A stretch of DNA of 55,618 bases from Thermodesulfobacteriota bacterium (GTDB lineage Bacteria; Desulfobacterota_D; UBA1144; Nemesobacterales; N074bin48), in contig JBFFSH010000004.1 in NCBI GenBank assembly GCA_041572575.1, positions 1 through 55,618 on the forward strand, read 5' to 3'. This document shows, piece by piece, positions 1,986-26,127 of this stretch (positions are counted from its first letter, which is position 1; each line of letters starts with the position of its first letter). A model generated the notes under the pieces. The model searched no databases and was not told where the DNA came from. It was given only the letters and a program-made list of their open reading frames with translations. Both the position numbers and the translations under genes were made by a program.

Positions 1986-3284
1986 ATGAAAATATCACTT
2001 ACAAGCCTTGGATGCTCTAAAAACCTCGTGGACAGCGAGCTTATACTCGGAAGCCTCACAAACTCAGGCCACGAGATCACTACTGAAGACAAAGCAGACA
2101 TAATTGTAATTAACACATGCGGATTCATAGGCGATGCAAAAAAAGAATCTATAAATACGATCATTGATCTGGCAGAGTATAAGAAAACCGGCTCATGCAA
2201 AAAACTAATAGTCACAGGCTGTTTAGTAGAAAGATACTCGCAGCAGCTAAAAGACGAATTCCCTGAGGTTGATCATTTCTGGGGTACCGGAAACCTGCTA
2301 AAGATTAATGAAGTACTCTCAGATACAATTTACGATTTCAACAAAACCCCTTTTGGAACAATCTATGACCCCGACAGCCCAAGGGTAATGCTCACTGATT
2401 CTCACACAAGTTATGTAAAAGTATCAGAAGGCTGTTCAAGAACCTGCTCATTTTGCATTATTCCCAAGATGAGGGGAATCATGAAAAGCAGGAGTGTTGA
2501 TTCAATATATAATGAAATATCTATGCTTGGACAAAACGGAGTAAAAGAAATAAATCTAATTGCTCAGGACATGACAAGCTACGGCAGAGACATCGGCACA
2601 AGTCTTTACACCCTTTTAAAAGAACTTATAACAATTGATTCTATAGAATGGATGAGGCTGCATTATTGCTACCCTTGGGGAGTAACTGATGAGCTTGTTG
2701 ATCTGCTAGCAGATGACAATAACCTTCTGCCATATATTGACATGCCCATACAGCATATAAATGACAGGATATTAAAACTGATGGATAGAAAAACCCCTAA
2801 AAAGAGAATTTTATCTATTGTAAATAAATTAAAGCAGTCTATGCCCGATCTAACATTAAGAACTACATTTATTGTAGGCTTTCCGTCAGAGACTGAAGAT
2901 GAATTTGAAGAGCTGCTTGAATTTGTTGAGGACACGAAGTTTCAAAGAGCCGGTGCCTTTAGGTATTCGCATGAAGAGGGTACGCCTTCTTTTGATATTG
3001 ATGGTCAGATCGATGAAGACATTAAGGAAGAGAGGCTCGAAAGACTTCTGAATGTTCAGTCCGATATATCGCTTGAAAATAATAAAGCGCTTATAGGTAA
3101 AACATTTGGTTATTTTGTCGAGGGGATAGAGGACGGCAATTATTTTGGCAGAATAAGCACTCAGGCACCCGAGGTTGATGGACTGACGTATATAACTACG
3201 GACAAAAAACTTAAAAAAGGTGATTTCCTGCAAGTCAGAATCACCGAAGCAGATATATACAATTTACACGCAGAACTAGTTTAA
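1986..3284 (+). CDS. rimO: ribosomal protein S12 methylthiotransferase RimO
   Basis: LGCSKNLVDSE, NTCGFI, radical SAM motif CSRTCSFC, C-terminal TRAM domain with APEVDG. Confidence 0.95.
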   Translation: MKISLTSLGCSKNLVDSELILGSLTNSGHEITTEDKADIIVINTCGFIGDAKKESINTIIDLAEYKKTGSCKKLIVTGCLVERYSQQLKDEFPEVDHFWGTGNLLKINEVLSDTIYDFNKTPFGTIYDPDSPRVMLTDSHTSYVKVSEGCSRTCSFCIIPKMRGIMKSRSVDSIYNEISMLGQNGVKEINLIAQDMTSYGRDIGTSLYTLLKELITIDSIEWMRLHYCYPWGVTDELVDLLADDNNLLPYIDMPIQHINDRILKLMDRKTPKKRILSIVNKLKQSMPDLTLRTTFIVGFPSETEDEFEELLEFVEDTKFQRAGAFRYSHEEGTPSFDIDGQIDEDIKEERLERLLNVQSDISLENNKALIGKTFGYFVEGIEDGNYFGRISTQAPEVDGLTYITTDKKLKKGDFLQVRITEADIYNLHAELV

Positions 3285-3301
3285 CTCAGTGGTATGAGAA
3301 G

Positions 3302-4228
3302 ATGAAAATCATTTTCATGGGAACCCCGGAATTTGCCGTACCATCACTCAAGGCACTCACAGAGTCAGAGGATGAAGTAATTGCTGTTGTCTGCCAGCCC
3401 GATAAGCCGGTAGGCAGAAAAAGAGAATTACACAAGCCTCTAACAAAACAGTTTGCCGAAAGCCGGAATATTTCAGTACTACAACCTGCAAAAATTAGAA
3501 ACAATGAAAAATTTCTGAATGAGCTTAAACAACTAGCGCCCGATCTAATTTGCGTAGCAGCCTATGGAAAGATTCTTCCAAAAGAAGTATTAGACCTTCC
3601 AGTGCATGGATGTATTAATGTTCATTCATCATTGCTGCCAAAATACCGTGGTGCCGCACCAATAAATTGGGCAATAATAAACGGTGAGTCCAGGACCGGT
3701 GTTACAACCATGCTAATGGATGAAGGTATGGACACAGGTGACATATTGCTTATTGAAGAAACTAACATTACTGCTGACGATACCTCTGAAACCCTTACAA
3801 AAAGGTTATCTGAAATTGGCGCAGAATTATTAATCAAGACAATAGATGAATTAAAACAAGAGGGACTCAATCCCATAAAGCAAAGTGATAGTGAAGCTAC
3901 CCTCGCACCCATACTCAAAAAAGAACACGGGGAAATAGACTGGTCAAAATCAGCCACTGAAATCAGAAATCAGATAAGAGGTCTTCTGCCATGGCCGGTA
4001 GCATATACGAATCTAAACGGAAAGATGCTAAAAATATTTAGCGCCGATGTTTCCGAGAAAAGCGGTGATCCCGGAGTAGTATTAGAAGCAAGTAAAAGTA
4101 TTCTTAGAATTGCATGCGGATCCGGAAGTCTTGACTTAAAAGAGCTGCAGCTTGAGGGAAACAAGAAAATGGAAATCAGATCATTTCTTGCCGGAAGAAA
4201 AATAGAAAGTGGAATGAGACTTGGTTAG
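3302..4228 (+). CDS. fmt: methionyl-tRNA formyltransferase
   Basis: IIFMGTPEFA, CQPDKPVGR, NVHSSLLPKYRGAAPI, MDEGMDTG. Confidence 0.97.
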   Translation: MKIIFMGTPEFAVPSLKALTESEDEVIAVVCQPDKPVGRKRELHKPLTKQFAESRNISVLQPAKIRNNEKFLNELKQLAPDLICVAAYGKILPKEVLDLPVHGCINVHSSLLPKYRGAAPINWAIINGESRTGVTTMLMDEGMDTGDILLIEETNITADDTSETLTKRLSEIGAELLIKTIDELKQEGLNPIKQSDSEATLAPILKKEHGEIDWSKSATEIRNQIRGLLPWPVAYTNLNGKMLKIFSADVSEKSGDPGVVLEASKSILRIACGSGSLDLKELQLEGNKKMEIRSFLAGRKIESGMRLG

Positions 4229-20328: not shown

Positions 20329-22275
20329 TTACTGGGGTCTTGTAACACCCAGTTTTCTCATTCGTGCTCTGAGAGTACTCGGATTTATATCCAATATAGA
20401 AGCGGCACCTTGTTCCCCATGCACTTTCCAATTGGTTTTTTCAAGGATTTTAACAATATGATTCCTTTCTATATTCTCTAGCCTCATTAAATTCAGGTTA
20501 TCCTGCAGTTCTATATTATCAATAAACTGATCTTCTATATGAAGTGTACTTCCCTTCGAAAGTACAATATTTCTCTCTAAAACATTTTGTAGTTCTCTAA
20601 TGTTGCCCGGCCAATTATATCTCAAAAGCTTATCGTGAGATTTAACAGAAATCCGGCGTATATTTTTACCTAATTTTTTCGAGTATTGCGTTATGAAATA
20701 ATTAACTAAAAGAGGTATATCGGATTTACGTTCTCTTAGTGGGAGCACAAGTACAGGCACAACATTTAATCTATAATACAGGTCGGCTCTGAATTTATTC
20801 TGCTTGATAGAAAGTTCGAGATTTCTGTTTGTGGCAGCTATCACTCTCACGTTTACTCTTTGAGTATTACTGCTGCCTACTCTCTCATATTCCCCTTCCT
20901 GAAGAATCCTAAGAAGCTTAACCTGCAAGTCCACAGGTAATTCAGAAATTTCATCTAAAAATATGGTCCCGCCATCGGCAATCTCAAACCTGCCAATTTT
21001 TTCCTTAACAGCCCCGGTAAAAGCGCCTTTTTCATGTCCGAATAACTCACTTTCAATAAGCGTAGGAGCTATGGCTCCACAATTAACTTTTACAAATGAC
21101 CTGGTATTTCTTGAGCTTAGGTTATGAATTGCCCTTGCTATTAGTTCTTTACCAGTTCCGGTTTCCCCCAATATAAGTACAGCAGATTCAGTCGGAGCTA
21201 CGATTTCAACTTTATTAAGAATTTTCTTAAGCTCAATATCTTCACCTATTATTTCTTCAAAATTGTCATTTAATCTAATCTCTTCTTTCAGGTAAATATT
21301 TTCATGATGCAGTTGGTCTTTTAATATCTCCAACTCTTCTAATGCATTCTTTAATTCCTGGGCCTGTTTTGCATTATTAACAGATACTTCAATTTCCTTA
21401 GATACTATTTCGAGCAGTCTCAACTCGTCTTCACTAAAAGCATCCATTTCCATCGCATGTAAATTTATACAACCAATAGTCTTACCACTCTGTTTTATAG
21501 GTAGTGACAGACAGCTTTTAGTGCCGAGCTTCAGTACTTCTGGGCTTGCCTGAATTTCTTTTTCTAGATCCTCACAATATTTAGCCTTACCGGTGGAAAT
21601 AATGTTCCAGACTATGCCATTTGGATATTTGATAATTTCAAATTGCTCCAAATACCAATTTGGAAGACCTGCATAGCCGCTTAGTACCGCATTATCCTGT
21701 TCTGCAAGATATATTTCTACACCGTTTATACTATCTAAATTTTCAAAGAGGGAATTTGAAGCATTTCTCAATACTTCTTTAAGGTCTATAGTCTTATGAA
21801 TATCCTTAAGAATGTTGTTTATTATTTCTTCATTTCTATTTTTTCTTGATAATTTTAAGAGGGTTTCCTGTAAAGTTTTCTCAGATTTTCTGGTTCTGGT
21901 TATATCCTTAAAAATACATACTCTTCCAATTACCTGATCATTTAACTTTTGAGGAGTCGTGATTTTTTCAAAAATTCGTCCATCTTTAAACTCCAGTATC
22001 TCAAAAGTATCCTTCAATCTGTTATTAACGAGTTCATTAAATTTCTCGTTGTAATCTTCTGAGTGCTTAACAAGAGTACCGAAATATTCAAAAATATCTG
22101 ATTTTTTCTTACTTTCTATTTTATCGCTGGTGATTTTCCAGACATCTAAGAACTTTTCATTGTAATAAAGAAAATTACCATCAGTATCTATGATCAAAAT
22201 TCCATCTGGCTCACTATCGATAGCCGACTTAAAAAAGTCGGTGTATTCAATTATATTTTTTTTGGTAACATTCAT
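20329..22275 (-). CDS. sigma54-dependent enhancer-binding protein, PAS-GAF-AAA+-HTH (FhlA/NifA-like)
   Basis: N-terminal PAS-like and GAF-like regions, GETGTGKE, intact [28 protein letters not shown]-terminal HTH. No receiver domain. Confidence 0.93.
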
Positions 22276-22286
22276 TATTTTTAATG

Positions 22287-22317
22287 GTCATATTTTACAA
22301 CTGCTGTCATATTTGAC
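22287..22317. promoter_or_regulatory. tandem candidate upstream activator sites
   Basis: GTCATATTTTAC (22287-22298) and GTCATATTTGAC (22306-22317): 11/12 identical, 19 bp apart, GTCA-N4-TGAC dyad. Confidence 0.55.
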
Positions 22318-22375
22318 TAATATTTTTGAATACCTATTCATCTTCATACCTAACGATTTCCAAAATATTCCATAA

Positions 22376-22388
22376 ATTCAGTGACTTA
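22376..22388 (+). promoter_or_regulatory. candidate IHF site
   Basis: ATTCAGTGACTTA is one mismatch from WATCARNNNNTTR, preceded by an AT-rich tract and lying between the candidate UAS and the -24/-12 box. Confidence 0.4.
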
Positions 22389-22405
22389 AGACAGGTTTGC
22401 AGATA

Positions 22406-22421
22406 TGGCATACCCCATGCA
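22406..22421 (+). promoter_or_regulatory. sigma54 -24/-12 promoter
   Basis: TGGCATACCCCATGCA: GG and GC separated by exactly 10 nt, 36 bp upstream of the ATG with an AAGGAGGT RBS, next to a sigma54 activator gene. Confidence 0.8.
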
Positions 22422-22457
22422 TAAAGTATATTAACTTTTATTAAGGAGGTAAATAGG

Positions 22458-23201
22458 ATGAAAGTATTATATTTAGTATTTTCTCTATTACTCATATGTA
22501 TATCTTATTCAAAACCAGCAGTTTCTGAGCTGCCTGATCCGGGAATGGAAATTGATGATAGGACGGCTTTGGTAGTAACAGATCCACAAAATGATTTTCT
22601 TAGCCCCAAAGGAGTTACATGGGGTGTAGTAGGGGAAAGCGTTACAGAAAATAAGACAGTTCCTAATATTGAAAGCCTGCTAAAAATCGCCAAGGCAACC
22701 AATATTCCGGTTTTTGTATCCCCTCATTACTACTATCCTACGGATAAAGGCTGGATGTTTGAGGGAGCGCTTGAAGTTCTGATGCATAAAATCAATATGT
22801 TTGACAGAGCCGGGCCTTTATCTCTCGAAGGATTTGAGGGTTCGGGAGCGGACTTTCTCGAGCCTTACAAGCCCTACATTGAAGATGGAAAAACAGTAGT
22901 AACAAGTCCGCACAAGGTTTACGGACCCGAGGCAAATGACCTTGTATTGCAGTTAAGGAAGAGAAAGATTGATAAGGTAATACTTGCAGGTATGTCTGCA
23001 AACCTTTGTGTGGAAGCTCATATGAGAGAACTTCTCGAACAGGGTTTTGAAGTTACGGTTGTAACAGACGGCACAGCTGCTGCAAAGGTTCCTGAGGGTG
23101 ATGGTTATAAGGCAGCCATGGTCAACTTCAGATTTATGGCAAATGACCTTTGGACAACAAAAGAGGCCAATGAGAAAATGAAAAGCTTTGCTAAGAAATA
23201 A
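22458..23201 (+). CDS. exported cysteine hydrolase (isochorismatase superfamily)
   Basis: Signal peptide. Catalytic Asp (VVTDPQNDF), Lys (SPHKVYG) and Cys (GMSANLCVE). Confidence 0.88.
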   Translation: MKVLYLVFSLLLICISYSKPAVSELPDPGMEIDDRTALVVTDPQNDFLSPKGVTWGVVGESVTENKTVPNIESLLKIAKATNIPVFVSPHYYYPTDKGWMFEGALEVLMHKINMFDRAGPLSLEGFEGSGADFLEPYKPYIEDGKTVVTSPHKVYGPEANDLVLQLRKRKIDKVILAGMSANLCVEAHMRELLEQGFEVTVVTDGTAAAKVPEGDGYKAAMVNFRFMANDLWTTKEANEKMKSFAKK

Positions 23202-23279
23202 TCCTGGCAATACATATTTGCTTATTCTCTATGGAAATGATTTAGCTGTAAATATATATTAAAGGAGAGTTTTATATAA

Positions 23280-24479
23280 ATGAAAATCACAAAACTTTAT
23301 AAACTATTATTATTTTCTTTGCTGTGTATGTTCATCTCCCCCAAAATATCTAATGCACAAGCCATTGTAGTCCAGTTTCTTGGAACATCAGACGTAAGTG
23401 TACAGATGATAGACACCGATGGTGACGGAGAAAATGACGTGGAGTCTAACTGCTATGAAAACGACCTGGTTGATCCAACCAGCGGAGAAGTAGTTGGCAC
23501 TGGTCTTGATTGCCTCAGAGATATAGTAGCTAATGAGGATGGAAGTGTAACTCTTATAAGCAATATATTCTTTGATTTCGATGGATTCGGGCTTATTTCT
23601 TCTGAAGGTACAACCACGGTTCAGCCATTACTGACTCAATCTGCTCTGGATGCGGGGCTTACAAACGGCACCGGTTCCTTTTCAGATGAGGATACAATAA
23701 TGTTTGGCACAGGGGTATTTGAAGATGCTACGGGTAATGTACGTTTATCCGGCCTTGTTGACCTTAGCAGTTTTCCAAATGAAGCATTTTTTAACTGTGT
23801 TTTTGAAATAGCAGTGGATGGCGATCCTGCCCCAAATATCACAGGAAGCGGTGATGAGGCTATAGTAGTCAAATTTCTGGGAACAGACTCCGGACAGGAT
23901 ACAATGATCGACACCGATGGTGATGATGTAAATGATGTGGAATCTACATGCTTTGAAAATGATCTTGTAGACCCAAATACCGGTAATGTTGTAGGGCATG
24001 GAATTGACTGTCTAAGAGATATAACACCGGTTGAAGATACAAATGGTCTTACTCTTACAAGCAACATATTCTTCACATTTGATAGTGGAGGGCTAAATGG
24101 TCTGATATCCTCAGAAGGTACAACCACTGTGCAGCCCCTGGTTACAGATTCTGCATTGGATGCGGGTCTAACTCATCAAACCCAGTCCTTTAGAGATAAT
24201 GATACTATCAAATTTGGGACTGGTGATTTTGCAGGCGCTACTGGAAACGCCAGACTATCGGGACTTGTGGATTTAACTACTTTTCCAGACGATACCTTTT
24301 TCAATTGCATGTTTATTATTAAGGCAAACAGGATTGTTGGTGTTAAAAGCGGAAGCGGATGTGCTCTGGCATCAAATAATGATTATGCACAAAGCGGTGC
24401 TATTAATTATTTAATGATGTTATTGGTTCCGTTGTTGATAATTGGTATCAGAAAAAGATATTTTGCAAGTAATTCTTAG
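23280..24479 (+). CDS. exported protein with two tandem ~150-aa repeats and a C-terminal membrane anchor
   Basis: Signal peptide, two homologous domains, then SGSGC-spacer-hydrophobic helix-RKR tail. AAGGAG RBS. Confidence 0.85.
   Translation: MKITKLYKLLLFSLLCMFISPKISNAQAIVVQFLGTSDVSVQMIDTDGDGENDVESNCYENDLVDPTSGEVVGTGLDCLRDIVANEDGSVTLISNIFFDFDGFGLISSEGTTTVQPLLTQSALDAGLTNGTGSFSDEDTIMFGTGVFEDATGNVRLSGLVDLSSFPNEAFFNCVFEIAVDGDPAPNITGSGDEAIVVKFLGTDSGQDTMIDTDGDDVNDVESTCFENDLVDPNTGNVVGHGIDCLRDITPVEDTNGLTLTSNIFFTFDSGGLNGLISSEGTTTVQPLVTDSALDAGLTHQTQSFRDNDTIKFGTGDFAGATGNARLSGLVDLTTFPDDTFFNCMFIIKANRIVGVKSGSGCALASNNDYAQSGAINYLMMLLVPLLIIGIRKRYFASNS
23361..24320 (+). repeat. intragenic tandem domain duplication (23361-23810 and 23859-24320)
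   Basis: Shared blocks AIVV.FLGT, MIDTDGD..NDVES.C.ENDLVDP, DCLRDI, GLISSEGTTTVQPL, SALDAGLT, FGTG.F..ATGN.RLSGLVDL..FP...FFNC.F.I. Also visible at DNA level (GACACCGATGGTGA; GAAGGTACAACCAC). Confidence 0.95.
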
Positions 24480-24485
24480 AGTGAT

Positions 24486-24521
24486 TTAAACCCACCTCAA
24501 TATTATTTGAGGTGGGTTTAA
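24486..24521. terminator. bidirectional intrinsic terminator
   Basis: Perfect 15-bp inverted repeat TTAAACCCACCTCAA / TTGAGGTGGGTTTAA between convergent genes. Confidence 0.8.
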
Positions 24522-24534
24522 TACTATCTTGTTT

Positions 24535-25023
24535 TTAATCTCTCCATTTACTGAATACATAATCAGATTCTTTTTGAGACTGATGGCAGCTAAAGCAGCT
24601 TTGCCCTCCGTCTGCAACAAGGCGCTCTGTTTTACTGTCCCCTGCAAATCCTTCGAATCCCCAGCCTCCTGTGGATGCATATGCGGCTGAATCTTTTTGC
24701 ATAATACCAATTAGTTTTCTATCTGATTCCTGAATTGTCTTATCGGCCTGATTATAATTTAAAAGATCAAACACAATAACAGCACCATCCTGAAAAGTGC
24801 CTGATCTATAACCCTCAATTGCTTGTTCGTTGCCATAGATATGGTGTATACCCTGAAACGGATTTTCAAGCGGATGTCCAGGCTCTATAACCATTGTTTT
24901 TACATGTGTCCAGCTCCGGTAACCATCCGGATATGCAATCTGTGAGCTTTGTCCAACGGTTTTCATACACCCAACAGCTCCAACGACTAAAACAAATACA
25001 CCAAAGACGATAGATTTTTTCAT
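24535..25023 (-). CDS. cytochrome P460/c'-beta family lipoprotein (c'-beta type)
   Basis: Start moved to ATG 25023 (AAGGAGG RBS). Lipobox AVG-C. YPDGYRSW, F.DGAVIVF, GGWGF, C-terminal heme motif CFSCH, DYVFS. Confidence 0.85.
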   Translation of the reverse strand: MKKSIVFGVFVLVVGAVGCMKTVGQSSQIAYPDGYRSWTHVKTMVIEPGHPLENPFQGIHHIYGNEQAIEGYRSGTFQDGAVIVFDLLNYNQADKTIQESDRKLIGIMQKDSAAYASTGGWGFEGFAGDSKTERLVADGGQSCFSCHQSQKESDYVFSKWRD

Positions 25024-25048
25024 TAAAAGCCTCCTTATAAGCATTATA

Positions 25049-25069
25049 TTGGTATCGACTCTATACTAT
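25049..25069. promoter_or_regulatory. candidate MarR operator 1
   Basis: TTGGTATCGA-C-TCTATACTAT, 17/20 arm matches to the dyad ATAGTATCGA-N-TCGATACTAT inferred from both sites. Confidence 0.6.
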
Positions 25070-25096
25070 ATATCAAATATAAAACTACTTGTCAAG

Positions 25097-25117
25097 ATAG
25101 TTTTGCCACGATACTAT
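25097..25117. promoter_or_regulatory. candidate MarR operator 2
   Basis: ATAGTTTTGC-C-ACGATACTAT, 16/20 arm matches to the same dyad, ending 9 bp before the MarR start. Confidence 0.55.
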
Positions 25118-25126
25118 TATAAAGAT

Positions 25127-25696
25127 ATGAAACAATCGCAAATTCTGGAACTAATCGAGAGAATCGGAAATCTACTGAGAGCAGAGCAGAGGATAATAGG
25201 CTCTGCACAACAGCTTCAGCCTGTACACATTCAGGTTCTTGAATACCTAAACCGGTGCAATAAATACAGCAACACACCCGCAGGAGTCGTTAAATATTTT
25301 GGTATTACAAAGGGAACAGTATCACAATCTATAAATGTTCTTGAAAAAAGATCACTTGTAGAAAAGAAAACTGATCTTGCAGACAAAAGGTCTGTGCACA
25401 TTATTATTACTGCAAAGGGGAAAAAATTGCTAAAAACCCTTTTAATAAAAAGAAGTTCTTTTGAATTAGCAAAAAACACAGATAGCAAAATCAATAACTT
25501 GGTAGAAACTGAACTTAAAAACATATTAGCTAATTTGCAAAAACATAACTCTTATAACACCTTCGGAGTATGCAATACATGTAGACATCTAATCACAGAG
25601 CAAAATGGATTTAGATGTGGATTAACTAAAGAAGTGTTGTCATCCACTGATACAACTAAGATATGCCATGAGCATGAATACTCTGAGGCAGTCTAA
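25127..25696 (+). CDS. MarR-family winged-helix regulator with C-terminal C-x2-C-x11-C-x15-C motif
   Basis: ITKGTVSQSINVLEKRSLVEKK.D..DKRSVHIIITAKG wHTH, then FGVCNTC...RCGLT...ICHEH. Start placed at MKQSQ because the upstream in-frame extension runs through the operators. Confidence 0.85.
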   Translation: MKQSQILELIERIGNLLRAEQRIIGSAQQLQPVHIQVLEYLNRCNKYSNTPAGVVKYFGITKGTVSQSINVLEKRSLVEKKTDLADKRSVHIIITAKGKKLLKTLLIKRSSFELAKNTDSKINNLVETELKNILANLQKHNSYNTFGVCNTCRHLITEQNGFRCGLTKEVLSSTDTTKICHEHEYSEAV

Positions 25697-26127
25697 TCAG
25701 TTTTTTTATCGAATATCTCTGATTTTGCTAACCAAACAAATAAAAATCCCACAGTCAAACTAAGCAATGGTCCAAGATATTTCTGCCATAGGGAATTTAT
25801 AACGGCAATATTCGGATCAGCATTTAAATAAATAATTTCTATGGGCTCACCTTTTTCAGGAGCAAACAGATATCCATAAGGCCTGGTGTTTTTAAATGTA
25901 TGCGAATTACCACTTTGATCTTTAAATTCAACCGTCACATAAAACCTTGCAGAGCTTCCGCCAGACCTATGTCTTTCTATTCTTTTAACTTCCCCTTTTA
26001 CAGCAATCCCTTTAGAGGATAGCTGAGCGGAGTTATATAGATCGACCCCGCCTGTATATAGCAAGTATAGACCAGCGGCAGCTGAAACAATAATTATCAG
26101 CCAAGATTTGAGTCTGGCCTTCATCAA
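25693..26127 (-). CDS. DUF3592-like membrane protein
   Basis: TM helix, beta-rich middle (VKGEV...VTVEF.D..G...IEIIY...DP..A), second TM helix. Confidence 0.75.
   Translation of the reverse strand: MMKARLKSWLIIIVSAAAGLYLLYTGGVDLYNSAQLSSKGIAVKGEVKRIERHRSGGSSARFYVTVEFKDQSGNSHTFKNTRPYGYLFAPEKGEPIEIIYLNADPNIAVINSLWQKYLGPLLSLTVGFLFVWLAKSEIFDKKTD

What the first reader, a model, noticed from the sequence alone, without database searches (positions are those of the whole stretch)
24535..25696. Four-Cys MarR regulator divergent from a cytochrome c'-beta-type gene: candidate NO/redox-sensing switch
Seen: a MarR wHTH with an extra C-terminal C-x2-C-x11-C-x15-C-H-E-H module, head-to-head (103 bp) with a single-heme P460-fold lipoprotein. 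Known: cytochromes c'-beta bind NO and CO, and characterised NO sensors (NsrR, FNR, WhiB-like) use Cys-ligated Fe-S clusters. Inference: the Cys module holds an Fe-S cluster or Zn whose modification releases the repressor, giving a NO/redox regulon outside the NsrR/NorR/DNR classes.
Basis: partly seen in the sequence, partly recalled or inferred. Interest (0 to 1): 0.7.

Follow-up and report, generated by a model that had tools for sequence, protein, structure and literature searches.

The report
Cys4 MarR repressor guarding cytochrome c'-beta
A MarR-type repressor with an undescribed four-cysteine tail sits head-to-head with an NO-binding cytochrome c'-beta gene, and the same regulator and 21-bp operator recur across at least seven phyla next to other nitrogen-oxide-handling haem proteins, so it is a good candidate for an unrecognised reactive-nitrogen sensor.

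Summary
Gene 24535-25023(-) encodes a cytochrome c'-beta orthologue (E 2e-58 to Methylococcus McCP-beta). Gene 25127-25696(+) encodes a complete MarR fold plus a 45-residue tail. The two starts are 103 bp apart.

The tail motif needs correcting to C-x2-C-x11-C-x15-C-x-[E/D]-H. The four Cys are invariant in 80/80 genomic relatives and His183 in 78/80. His181 is not conserved.

New here is a 21-bp palindromic operator, ATAGTATCGA-N-TCGATACTAT. It occurs twice in the intergenic region and upstream of marR in about 52 of 80 related loci. One copy fills the spacer and -10 of a leaderless marR promoter. The other lies at the divergent gene.

Divergent partners are cytochrome c'-beta (10 loci, 3 phyla), a cd1 NirS-like cluster, protoglobin, truncated haemoglobin, thioredoxin-like, AhpD-like and DUF2024 proteins. 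Extra operators precede an HAO-family octahaem gene.

This supports an autoregulated repressor of reactive-nitrogen-handling genes. Whether the tail binds Fe-S, Fe or Zn, and whether NO is the signal, remains inference. The tail has no Pfam, PDB-sequence or fold match, and I found no paper on it. I rate it a new variant of a known kind; the closest functional analogue is ArnR.

The parts
24535..25023 (-). Cytochrome c'-beta gene (162 aa): signal peptide or lipobox-like N-terminus with Cys19, Phe cap F56/F85, haem motif CFSCH at residues 143-147 (nt 24583-24597)
   Evidence: Pfam PF16694 E=3.4e-34. PDB 6HIH McCP-beta E=1.9e-58 with residue-by-residue alignment.
25030..25036 (-). Shine-Dalgarno AAGGAGG of the cytochrome gene
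   Evidence: Read directly from the sequence.
25049..25069 (.). Operator site 1 (TTGGTATCGACTCTATACTAT; core GTATCGACTCTATAC at 25052-25066), on the cytochrome side
   Evidence: One mismatch to the family core. PWM score 22.5 with a matrix built only from other loci; the next best site outside the pair scores 7.0 in 55.6 kb. Invariant in relative L081.
25089..25095 (.). TTGTCAA / TTGACAA: -35 hexamer of the marR promoter on the + strand. Its complement is a perfect TTGACA that could serve the divergent cytochrome promoter.
   Evidence: Promoter scan TTGTCA-17-TACTAT. TTGTCAAG is conserved directly upstream of the proximal operator in 20 of 23 loci. The cytochrome-promoter role is inference.
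25097..25117 (.). Operator site 2 (ATAGTTTTGCCACGATACTAT). It fills the spacer of the marR promoter, and its last six bases TACTAT (25112-25117) are the -10.
   Evidence: PWM score 21.1. Same layout in 23 loci, with 6-9 nt between the operator end and the start codon in 19 of them. Inverted repeat with site 1.
25127..25696 (+). MarR-family regulator gene (189 aa), probably translated from a leaderless or near-leaderless mRNA. There is no SD sequence and the ATG lies 9 nt after the -10.
   Evidence: Pfam MarR_2 E=1.3e-11. AF2 pLDDT 89. Foldseek matches to MarR, ST1710 and MepR.
25559..25675 (+). C-terminal metal-binding module, residues 145-183. Cys149 (25571-73), Cys152 (25580-82), Cys164 (25616-18), Cys180 (25664-66), Glu182, His183 (25673-75). 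Four short beta strands.
   Evidence: Invariant columns in A1 and A2. Four Cys in 80/80 loci and His in 78/80. Cys4 spacing in 265/275 family proteins. No Pfam, PDB-sequence or fold match.

Best explanation
The 189-aa protein is a dimeric MarR-type repressor. It binds two copies of a 21-bp palindrome (consensus ATAGTATCGA-N-TCGATACTAT) in the 103-bp intergenic region.

Site 2 occupies the spacer and -10 of the regulator's own leaderless promoter, which gives autorepression. Site 1, 48 bp away centre to centre, lies over the core or start region of the divergent cytochrome c'-beta promoter, which represses the target.

Each subunit carries a 45-residue C-terminal beta-rich module. Its four invariant cysteines, helped by a conserved Glu/Asp-His pair, hold one metal centre within the chain. 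I think an Fe-S cluster or Fe(Cys)4 site is most likely, and Zn(Cys)4 the alternative.

Reactive nitrogen species would nitrosylate or oxidise this thiolate-metal centre. NO is the prime candidate; hydroxylamine-derived species or oxidants are possible. The module packs against the dimerisation helices, so the change would be passed to the winged helices. The repressor would leave DNA and the periplasmic NO-binding cytochrome c'-beta would be made.

Shown (in silico): gene identities, the fold, conservation of Cys4-His, the operator and its promoter placement, and the recurrent partner genes.

Inferred: repression rather than activation, the identity of the metal, the identity of the signal, and the allosteric route.
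For: Gene identities.

Subfamily size: 446 representative clusters at E<=1e-10 and at least 581 genomic loci, in Pseudomonadota, Nitrospinota, Nitrospirota, Planctomycetota, Cyanobacteriota, Myxococcota, Chloroflexota, Acidobacteriota and Thermodesulfobacteriota.

Cys conservation: Cys4 invariant in 80/80 loci and His in 78/80.

Operator:
- 42 of 80 loci have the core with at most 2 mismatches within 400 bp upstream of marR.
- 52 loci have a site with PWM score of at least 13, against 9 background positions of at least 14 in about 750 kb.
- The window's two sites score 22.5 and 21.1 with a matrix that excluded the window; the next best site scores 7.0.
- The layout TTGTCAAG, then the operator ending in TACNAT, then the ATG occurs in 23 loci, with 6-9 nt between operator and start codon in 19 of them. 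Site spacing is 44-56 bp.
- Both sites are unchanged in a relative with 85% protein identity, while flanking intergenic bases differ.

Partners of the divergent or adjacent operator:
- cytochrome c'-beta in 10 loci;
- a cd1 NirS-like gene followed by cytochrome c and NirF-like genes in 4 Methylomonas loci;
- cytochrome c in 1 locus, protoglobin in 2, truncated globin in 2, thioredoxin-like in 5, AhpD/CMD-like in 1, DUF2024 in 6, with MOSC and haemerythrin genes nearby;
- additional operators 54 bp upstream of an HAO-family octahaem gene.

Metal site within one chain: single-chain MarR-MarR fusions carry only one Cys4 module.

Precedent: ArnR, a winged-helix repressor with a C-terminal [4Fe-4S] cluster that loses DNA binding on nitrosylation and controls hmp and narK (PMC12343034).
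Against: - No direct evidence for any metal. AF2 gives no cofactor and I had no access to model coordinates.
- A CxxC knuckle on beta hairpins is also typical of structural zinc sites.
- Several recurrent partners have no known link to NO: DUF2024, an unknown secreted 250-aa protein, and ATP-grasp or GGDEF neighbours in Methylobacter.
- A large Methylococcales sister clade sits behind speE and has no operator within 6 kb.
- The neighbourhood sample is the best 80 of at least 581 loci and is heavy in Methylococcales.
- RNA-seq contigs covering the locus were flat and uninformative.
- The position of the cytochrome promoter is only a consensus guess. The automatic scan did not call it.
Confidence: 0.5

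Rival explanations
1. The Cys4 module is a structural zinc site, a zinc-ribbon-like cap that stabilises the dimer or adds DNA contacts. The real effector is a small organic ligand bound in the usual MarR pocket between the dimerisation and DNA-binding domains. The link to haem proteins then reflects a metabolite signal, not NO chemistry at the cysteines.
For: - One CxxC knuckle following a beta strand, and four short strands in the AF2 model.
- A weak NCBIfam DksA-like hit over residues 112-158, E=9e-4.
- Sub-threshold Foldseek matches to primase zinc knuckles.
- Most MarR proteins are ligand-gated (established knowledge).
Against: - Only one CxxC knuckle. The other two Cys are isolated, which is not the two-knuckle pattern of zinc ribbons.
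- An additional near-invariant His and an acidic residue beyond the four ligands Zn would need.
- No significant fold match to any zinc ribbon.
- The partner genes share no common metabolite pathway but do share reactivity with NO, NH2OH or O2.
Confidence: 0.22
2. The module is a thiol-based redox switch for general oxidants (H2O2, HOCl, disulfide stress), with Zn release and disulfide formation as in RsrA or Hsp33. The regulon is an oxidative-stress regulon, not a nitrosative-stress one.
For: Thioredoxin-like (5 loci) and AhpD/CMD-like (1 locus) divergent partners. A near-invariant extra Cys44 in the DNA-binding domain. Many MarR proteins (OhrR, MexR, SarZ) are Cys-oxidation sensors (established knowledge).
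Against: The commonest partners are cytochrome c'-beta, the NirS-like cluster, an HAO-family gene and globins. These are tied to N-oxides, not peroxide. No catalase, peroxiredoxin or Ohr gene was seen next to any of the 80 loci.
Confidence: 0.15
3. The regulator senses O2, iron or haem supply through a labile cluster, in the manner of FNR, RirA or IscR. It tunes synthesis of haem proteins to cofactor or oxygen availability.
For: Nearly all identifiable partners are haem proteins: c'-beta, cd1, cytochrome c, the HAO-family protein, protoglobin and truncated haemoglobin. Haemerythrin genes lie nearby.
Against: No haem-biosynthesis, iron-uptake or Fe-S-assembly genes lie at the operators. The partners are a specific gas-reactive subset of haem proteins, not respiratory cytochromes in general. 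The hosts include strict aerobes.
Confidence: 0.08

Closest known systems
ArnR of Corynebacterium glutamicum (winged-helix repressor with a C-terminal [4Fe-4S] cluster; NO sensor controlling hmp and narKGHJI; PMC12343034)
   Same: A winged-helix DNA-binding domain is followed by a Cys-rich C-terminal sensory part. It is a dimeric repressor bound at target promoters. Its target genes handle NO. A conserved His lies near the Cys ligands.
   Different: ArnR has an ArsR-like wHTH, a single dimerisation helix and a sensory domain roughly twice as long, described by its authors as weakly TRAPPC3-like (about 14% identity to the template), with three Cys (179, 193, 223). The window protein has a complete six-helix MarR fold and a 45-residue beta module with four Cys at different spacing. 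TRAPPC3 entries 7YH2 and 7YH3 did not appear in either Foldseek search. The ArnR operator is AT-rich and unrelated. ArnR is almost confined to Actinobacteria. I could not run a direct sequence comparison because the ArnR sequence was available only as an image.
NsrR (Rrf2 family [4Fe-4S] NO-sensing repressor)
   Same: The proposed logic is the same: the holo-repressor sits on palindromic operators of NO-detoxification genes and leaves on nitrosylation of a Cys-ligated cluster.
   Different: Different DNA-binding fold (Rrf2) and three Cys at C-x5-C-x5-C spacing. No Rrf2 family was hit in Pfam or NCBIfam.
SufR (winged-helix [4Fe-4S] repressor of suf operons in cyanobacteria and actinobacteria)
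   Same: An N-terminal winged helix plus a C-terminal four-Cys motif with roughly 12-15-residue spacers.
   Different: The SufR motif as I recall it is C-x12-C-x13-C-x14-C, without a CxxC knuckle (from memory, not checked here). SufR regulates Fe-S assembly genes, and none were seen at these operators. Homology was not tested.
Redox-sensing MarR proteins (OhrR, MexR, SarZ/MgrA, HypR)
   Same: The same MarR fold, dimer and palindromic operators overlapping promoters. The signal is read by cysteine chemistry.
   Different: Those use one or two Cys inside the core fold and no metal. None has a separate C-terminal Cys4-His module.
McCP-beta, cytochrome c'-beta of Methylococcus capsulatus Bath (PDB 6HIH)
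   Same: The target gene product aligns over its full mature length at E=2e-58. It keeps the C-terminal CXXCH motif and both distal Phe-cap residues.
   Different: The window protein has a lipobox-like Cys after the signal peptide. No regulator of McCP-beta has been described in the papers I read.

Membership tests
MarR family transcriptional regulators | Winged helix-turn-helix of MarR type recognised by family profiles | tested here: met
   PF12802 MarR_2 E=1.3e-11, 44.9 bits against a cut-off of 27. HTH_27 E=2e-8.
MarR family transcriptional regulators | Complete MarR fold, with N- and C-terminal helices forming the dimer interface around the wHTH | tested here: met
   AF2 pLDDT 89, with helices 2-26, 32-43, 51-58, 62-74, 96-116 and 120-140 plus the wing at 78-94. 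Foldseek E of 1e-6 to 1e-7 and target-normalised TM up to 0.82 to ST1710, MarR, SlyA and RovA.
MarR family transcriptional regulators | (Pseudo)palindromic operator overlapping the regulator's own promoter | tested here: met
   The 21-bp palindrome lies in the spacer and -10 of the marR promoter, conserved in 23 loci. This is in silico only; binding was not measured.
Cytochrome c'-beta (P460-fold, no cross-link) | P460 fold with a single C-terminal CXXCH | tested here: met
   PF16694 E=3.4e-34. CFSCH at residues 143-147.
Cytochrome c'-beta (P460-fold, no cross-link) | Hydrophobic distal pocket with two Phe-cap residues instead of the P460 Lys cross-link and polar pocket | tested here: met
   The alignment to 6HIH keeps F56 and F85. 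These are the positions replaced by Val in two PDB variant entries of McCP-beta, 7ZS4 (NPF to NPV) and 7ZQZ (VFDL to VVDL). Matches to true P460 entries are far weaker, E from 1e-12 to 1e-5. I did not align the Lys position itself residue by residue.
Rrf2/NsrR, NorR, CRP-FNR (DNR/NnrR) NO regulators | Rrf2 HTH; or a sigma54 AAA+ domain with a GAF domain; or a cNMP-like sensor with a CRP HTH | tested here: not met
   None of these families was hit in Pfam or NCBIfam.
ArnR-type [4Fe-4S] NO sensors | Sensory domain described by its authors as weakly TRAPPC3-like, with three conserved Cys (C-x13-C-x29-C) | tested here: not met
   The module is only about 45 residues with a different Cys pattern. 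Neither Foldseek search returned TRAPPC3 entries. The description of ArnR comes from PMC12343034. A direct sequence comparison was not possible.
Zinc ribbon / rubredoxin-like Cys4 modules | Two CxxC (or CxxH) knuckles on paired beta hairpins | tested here: inconclusive
   One CxxC knuckle (149-152) and a C-x2-H (180-183) on strands, plus an isolated invariant Cys164. There is no significant fold match; the best E is 2.5.
Fe-S cluster-containing transcription factors (functional class) | A bound Fe-S cluster ligated by the conserved Cys | not testable with these tools
   This needs anaerobic purification with UV-vis, EPR, native MS and ICP-MS.

The most novel reading that the evidence does not exclude
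This MarR-Cys4His family is a previously unrecognised, phylogenetically broad class of reactive-nitrogen (NO or hydroxylamine) sensing transcription factor. It has a new type of metal-thiolate sensor module. It is the missing regulator of cytochrome c'-beta, of methanotroph HAO and NirS, and of globins in methanotrophs, nitrite oxidisers, sulfur oxidisers, planctomycetes, cyanobacteria and myxobacteria. Regulation of N-oxide handling is largely uncharted in these groups, which matter for N2O emission.
Probability: 0.4. Interest if true: 0.8.

Novelty: new variant of a known kind. Interest (0 to 1): 0.62.

Why it matters
Cytochromes c'-beta, methanotroph hydroxylamine oxidoreductase and cd1 nitrite reductase sit at the branch points that decide whether methanotrophs, nitrite oxidisers and sediment bacteria release NO and N2O. 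How these genes are switched on is essentially unknown outside model denitrifiers.

This analysis provides a defined regulator, an exact operator sequence and a predicted regulon. That turns the question into a set of simple experiments: EMSA with a 21-bp oligonucleotide, metal analysis and reporter fusions.

The 45-residue Cys4-His module has no Pfam family, no solved relative and no fold match. If it proves to be a sensor, it would add a new metal-thiolate sensing domain to the short list of bacterial NO sensors (NsrR, NorR, FNR/DNR, Wbl, ArnR).

Tried and rejected
- Fold search of the isolated C-terminal module against the PDB gave nothing significant; the best E was 2.5. Profile search of the module against PDB sequences and Pfam gave nothing.
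- A region-restricted homologue search asked whether the module occurs on other domain types. Only MarR proteins were returned, 19 hits. Its sensitivity is limited by word seeding and the length window.
- RNA evidence: four seawater RNA-seq runs hold the locus at 100% of sampled words. Their contigs span genes and intergenic DNA at a flat depth of 5-8. No transcript ends or regulation can be read from them, and DNA carry-over is possible.
- I could not obtain the ArnR sequence for a direct comparison. The supplement holds it only as an image, and I did not type it from memory.
- Literature searches for a MarR with an Fe-S cluster, a MarR linked to cytochrome c'-beta or cytS, and a MarR linked to haoA or nirS in methanotrophs found no description of this family.
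Within the 55.6-kb window there are no further sites.
- The 169-aa and 215-aa upstream-extended ORF readings were rejected. Homologues align from the MKK and MKQ starts. The 215-aa reading would start inside operator site 1, whose conservation across loci is explained by the DNA motif.
- The adjacent sigma54 PAS-GAF activator (20329-22275) was considered as a NorR-like partner. It has its own divergent target genes and no operator, so I did not link it to this system.
Full report
**1. What is there**

The stretch holds two divergent genes. The cytochrome gene runs 24535-25023 on the minus strand. It encodes 162 aa from the MKK start, 6 nt downstream of an AAGGAGG at 25030-25036. The regulator gene runs 25127-25696 on the plus strand (189 aa).

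*The cytochrome.* It is a cytochrome c'-beta, not a P460 enzyme.
- Pfam Cytochrome_P460 scores E=3.4e-34.
- The best solved relatives are Methylococcus capsulatus McCP-beta entries (6HIH, E=1.9e-58 over residues 14-162). True P460 entries score only 1e-12 to 1e-5.
- The single CFSCH lies at residues 143-147.
- Both distal Phe-cap residues are kept (F56 in NPF, F85 in VFDL). These are the positions replaced by Val in two PDB variant entries of McCP-beta, 7ZS4 (NPF to NPV) and 7ZQZ (VFDL to VVDL). They are described as the cap over the NO-binding site in PMC6427953.
- The N-terminus (…VGAVG-C19) is lipobox-like.

*The regulator.* It is a true, complete MarR.
- MarR_2 scores E=1.3e-11.
- The AF2 model (pLDDT 89, pTM 0.83) has the six MarR helices and the wing. 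It superposes on ST1710, MarR, SlyA, RovA and MepR.
- After helix 120-140 comes an extra module of four short strands (145-183).

**2. The Cys module**

An alignment of 30 diverse full-length relatives (A1) gives these invariant residues: F146, G147, C149, C152, C164, L166, L171, C180 and H183.
- In the 80 genomic loci fetched, the four Cys are present in 80/80 and His183 in 78/80.
- Among 275 family proteins, including distant representatives, 265 have the Cys4 spacing and 240 also have the His. The exceptions are mostly fragments.
Residue 182 is Glu or Asp.
- The family motif is therefore FG-x-C-x2-C-x(10-13)-C-G-L-T-x(12)-I-C-x-[ED]-H.

The module has no Pfam match even at E=10. It has no PDB sequence relative. 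Modelled alone, it has no significant fold match; pLDDT was 73 and the best Foldseek E was 2.5. A region-restricted search found it only on MarR proteins.

Single-chain MarR-MarR fusions (P0121-P0124, 336-345 aa) carry just one module. This argues that the four Cys of one chain form one site, not a cluster bridging two subunits.

Translating upstream of the regulator genes in the ten cytochrome-linked loci showed recurrent pseudo-peptides. That pattern revealed a conserved DNA element. The element is a palindrome with core GTATCGA-N-TCGATAC and 21-bp consensus ATAGTATCGA-N-TCGATACTAT.
- 42 of 80 loci have the core with at most 2 mismatches within 400 bp upstream of marR.
- 52 loci have a PWM site of at least 13 there. 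Only 9 positions reach 14 or more in the remaining ~750 kb.
- The matrix was built without the window, yet the window's two sites score 22.5 (25049-25069) and 21.1 (25097-25117). The next best of 55.6 kb scores 7.0.
- In a relative with 85% protein identity and identical synteny (L081), both sites are unchanged, while several neighbouring intergenic bases differ.

The proximal site has a fixed place. In 23 loci from several phyla the layout is as follows:
- TTGTCAAG comes first.
- The 21-bp operator follows, and its last six bases (TACTAT, TACCAT or TACAAT) are the -10.
- The start codon follows after 6-9 nt in 19 of the 23 loci.

The window fits this layout: TTGTCA 25089-25094, a 17-nt spacer, TACTAT 25112-25117 and ATG 25127. 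This implies autorepression and a leaderless or near-leaderless marR mRNA, and there is no SD sequence.

The distal site lies 44-56 bp away centre to centre (48 bp in the window), next to the divergent gene. The complement of TTGTCAA is a perfect TTGACA. It could serve as the -35 of the cytochrome promoter, with TATATA 17 nt on, which would put site 1 over the -10 edge and start region. This last point is my inference. The automatic scan did not call that promoter.

**4. What the family sits next to**

I made crude gene calls and clustered the neighbours, then ran family scans. For operator-bearing loci, the divergent or adjacent genes are:
- cytochrome c'-beta in 10 loci: Nitrospina, several Gammaproteobacteria, two Thiodiazotropha symbionts, Thiobacillus and a planctomycete;
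- a cytochrome-c plus cytochrome-d1-domain gene (NirS-like), followed by a small cytochrome c and NirF-like genes, in four Methylomonas genomes;
- a small cytochrome c in one locus;
- protoglobin in two loci;
- truncated haemoglobin in two Nitrospirales;
- an 82-aa CPVC thioredoxin-like protein in five loci;
- an AhpD/CMD-like protein in a cyanobacterium;
- DUF2024 in six loci;
- an unknown secreted 250-aa protein in four loci.

MOSC and haemerythrin genes lie nearby in several loci.

In two Methylococcales loci an additional operator lies 54 bp upstream of an HAO-family octahaem gene (PF13447, E=4e-154).

On a maximum-likelihood tree of the regulators, the cytochrome-linked members are scattered over at least three or four lineages within the non-Methylococcales part. 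The pairing is therefore either old or repeatedly re-formed.

A separate Methylococcales clade follows speE directly and has no operator within 6 kb. Its targets, if any, lie elsewhere.

**5. Interpretation**

I regard the repressor-operator-target architecture as well supported, at roughly 0.85.

The nature of the signal is inference. The identifiable partners share one property: they make, bind or remove NO, hydroxylamine or O2-derived species. HAO and NirS make NO. Cytochrome c'-beta binds it. Truncated globins and protoglobin bind or dioxygenate it. MOSC proteins reduce N-hydroxy compounds.

This pattern, together with an invariant Cys4 (plus His) site, makes a metal-thiolate sensor of reactive nitrogen the most economical reading.

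ArnR of Corynebacterium is a winged-helix repressor with a C-terminal [4Fe-4S] cluster. Its DNA binding is abolished by nitrosylation, and it controls hmp and narK (PMC12343034). Compared with the window protein, ArnR differs in several ways:
- it has an ArsR-like wHTH;
- its sensory domain is described by its authors as weakly TRAPPC3-like;
- it has three Cys at different spacing;
- its operator is unrelated and AT-rich;
- it is almost confined to Actinobacteria.

So the window protein works like ArnR or NsrR on my reading, but it is not a member of either family.

A structural zinc site with a conventional MarR ligand, a general oxidant switch, and an O2, iron or haem sensor all remain possible. 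None is excluded by any computation here.

**6. Novelty and limits**

I found no paper describing this subfamily, its module or its operator. The family is large, with 446 representative clusters at E<=1e-10 and at least 581 genomic loci. Where a source names these proteins, they are named only as MarR-family regulators, apart from a few JGI entries that call them emrRAB repressors.

I class it as a new variant of a known kind: metal-thiolate, winged-helix stress repressors.

Limits:
- The neighbourhood survey covers the best 80 loci and is rich in Methylococcales.
- Gene calling was crude.
- No coordinates of the AF2 models were available to measure Cys-Cys distances.
- The window's own genome could not be scanned for further operators.
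- The public RNA data were uninformative.

The organism itself is unnamed. It has 38% G+C and recurs at 100% of sampled words in marine, estuarine and other sediment metagenomes.

Noticed in passing
L070:2830-2860 (operator) with gene L070:1137-2786(-); L054:4020-4050 with L054:3808-4065(-): In two Methylococcales genomes an extra copy of the operator lies 54 bp upstream of an HAO-family octahaem cytochrome gene, about 1.8-2 kb from the regulator. In L054 that gene appears cut short after 85 codons by an inserted transposase-like ORF (2214-3695).
   Followed up: partly
proteins P0121-P0124 (336-345 aa): Single-chain fusions of two MarR units of this subfamily exist. Only the second unit carries the Cys4-His module, giving a covalent pseudo-dimer with one sensor site.
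   Followed up: partly
L010, L011, L019, L028, L036, L048, L058, L059, L074, L078 (marR starts 1-6 bp after speE in most; 48 bp in L074, 213 bp in L078): A well-supported Methylococcales sister clade of the regulator lies directly downstream of spermidine synthase (with arginine decarboxylase upstream) and is followed by ubiK-yifB. It keeps the Cys4-His module and the recognition helix, but has no copy of the palindrome within 6 kb.
   Followed up: partly
L005:5327-5590(-), L021, L031, L032, L039, L001 (DUF2024 genes): An 87-aa DUF2024 protein with a conserved C-[CV]-F-C-H motif and a C-terminal Cys is the second most common divergent partner of the regulator. In L001 a protoglobin gene follows it. 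Its function is unknown.
   Followed up: no
window 20329-24479: A receiver-less PAS-GAF sigma54 activator lies divergent from an exported isochorismatase-fold protein and a 399-aa internally duplicated secreted protein. The whole block is syntenic with the cytochrome-MarR pair in relative L081. It holds no copy of the MarR operator.
   Followed up: no
window 25693-25696: The regulator gene and the convergent DUF3592-like membrane protein gene (25693-26127, minus strand) overlap by their stop codons. No terminator lies between them.
   Followed up: no
L002:5142-5957(-), L003:5165-5896(-), L034:2724-3476(-), L073:4829-5581(-): A secreted protein of about 250 aa with no Pfam, NCBIfam or PDB match is the divergent partner in a cyanobacterium, a Nitrospinales genome and a genome titled Deltaproteobacteria. 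In a Thermodesulfobacteriota genome (L073) it follows a thioredoxin-like gene. It is a candidate unknown member of the regulon.
   Followed up: partly
window 24400-25800: The exact sequence recurs, with all sampled words, in some twenty marine, estuary, sediment and soil metagenome runs from nine studies and in four seawater RNA-seq runs. The unnamed organism is therefore widespread.
   Followed up: partly
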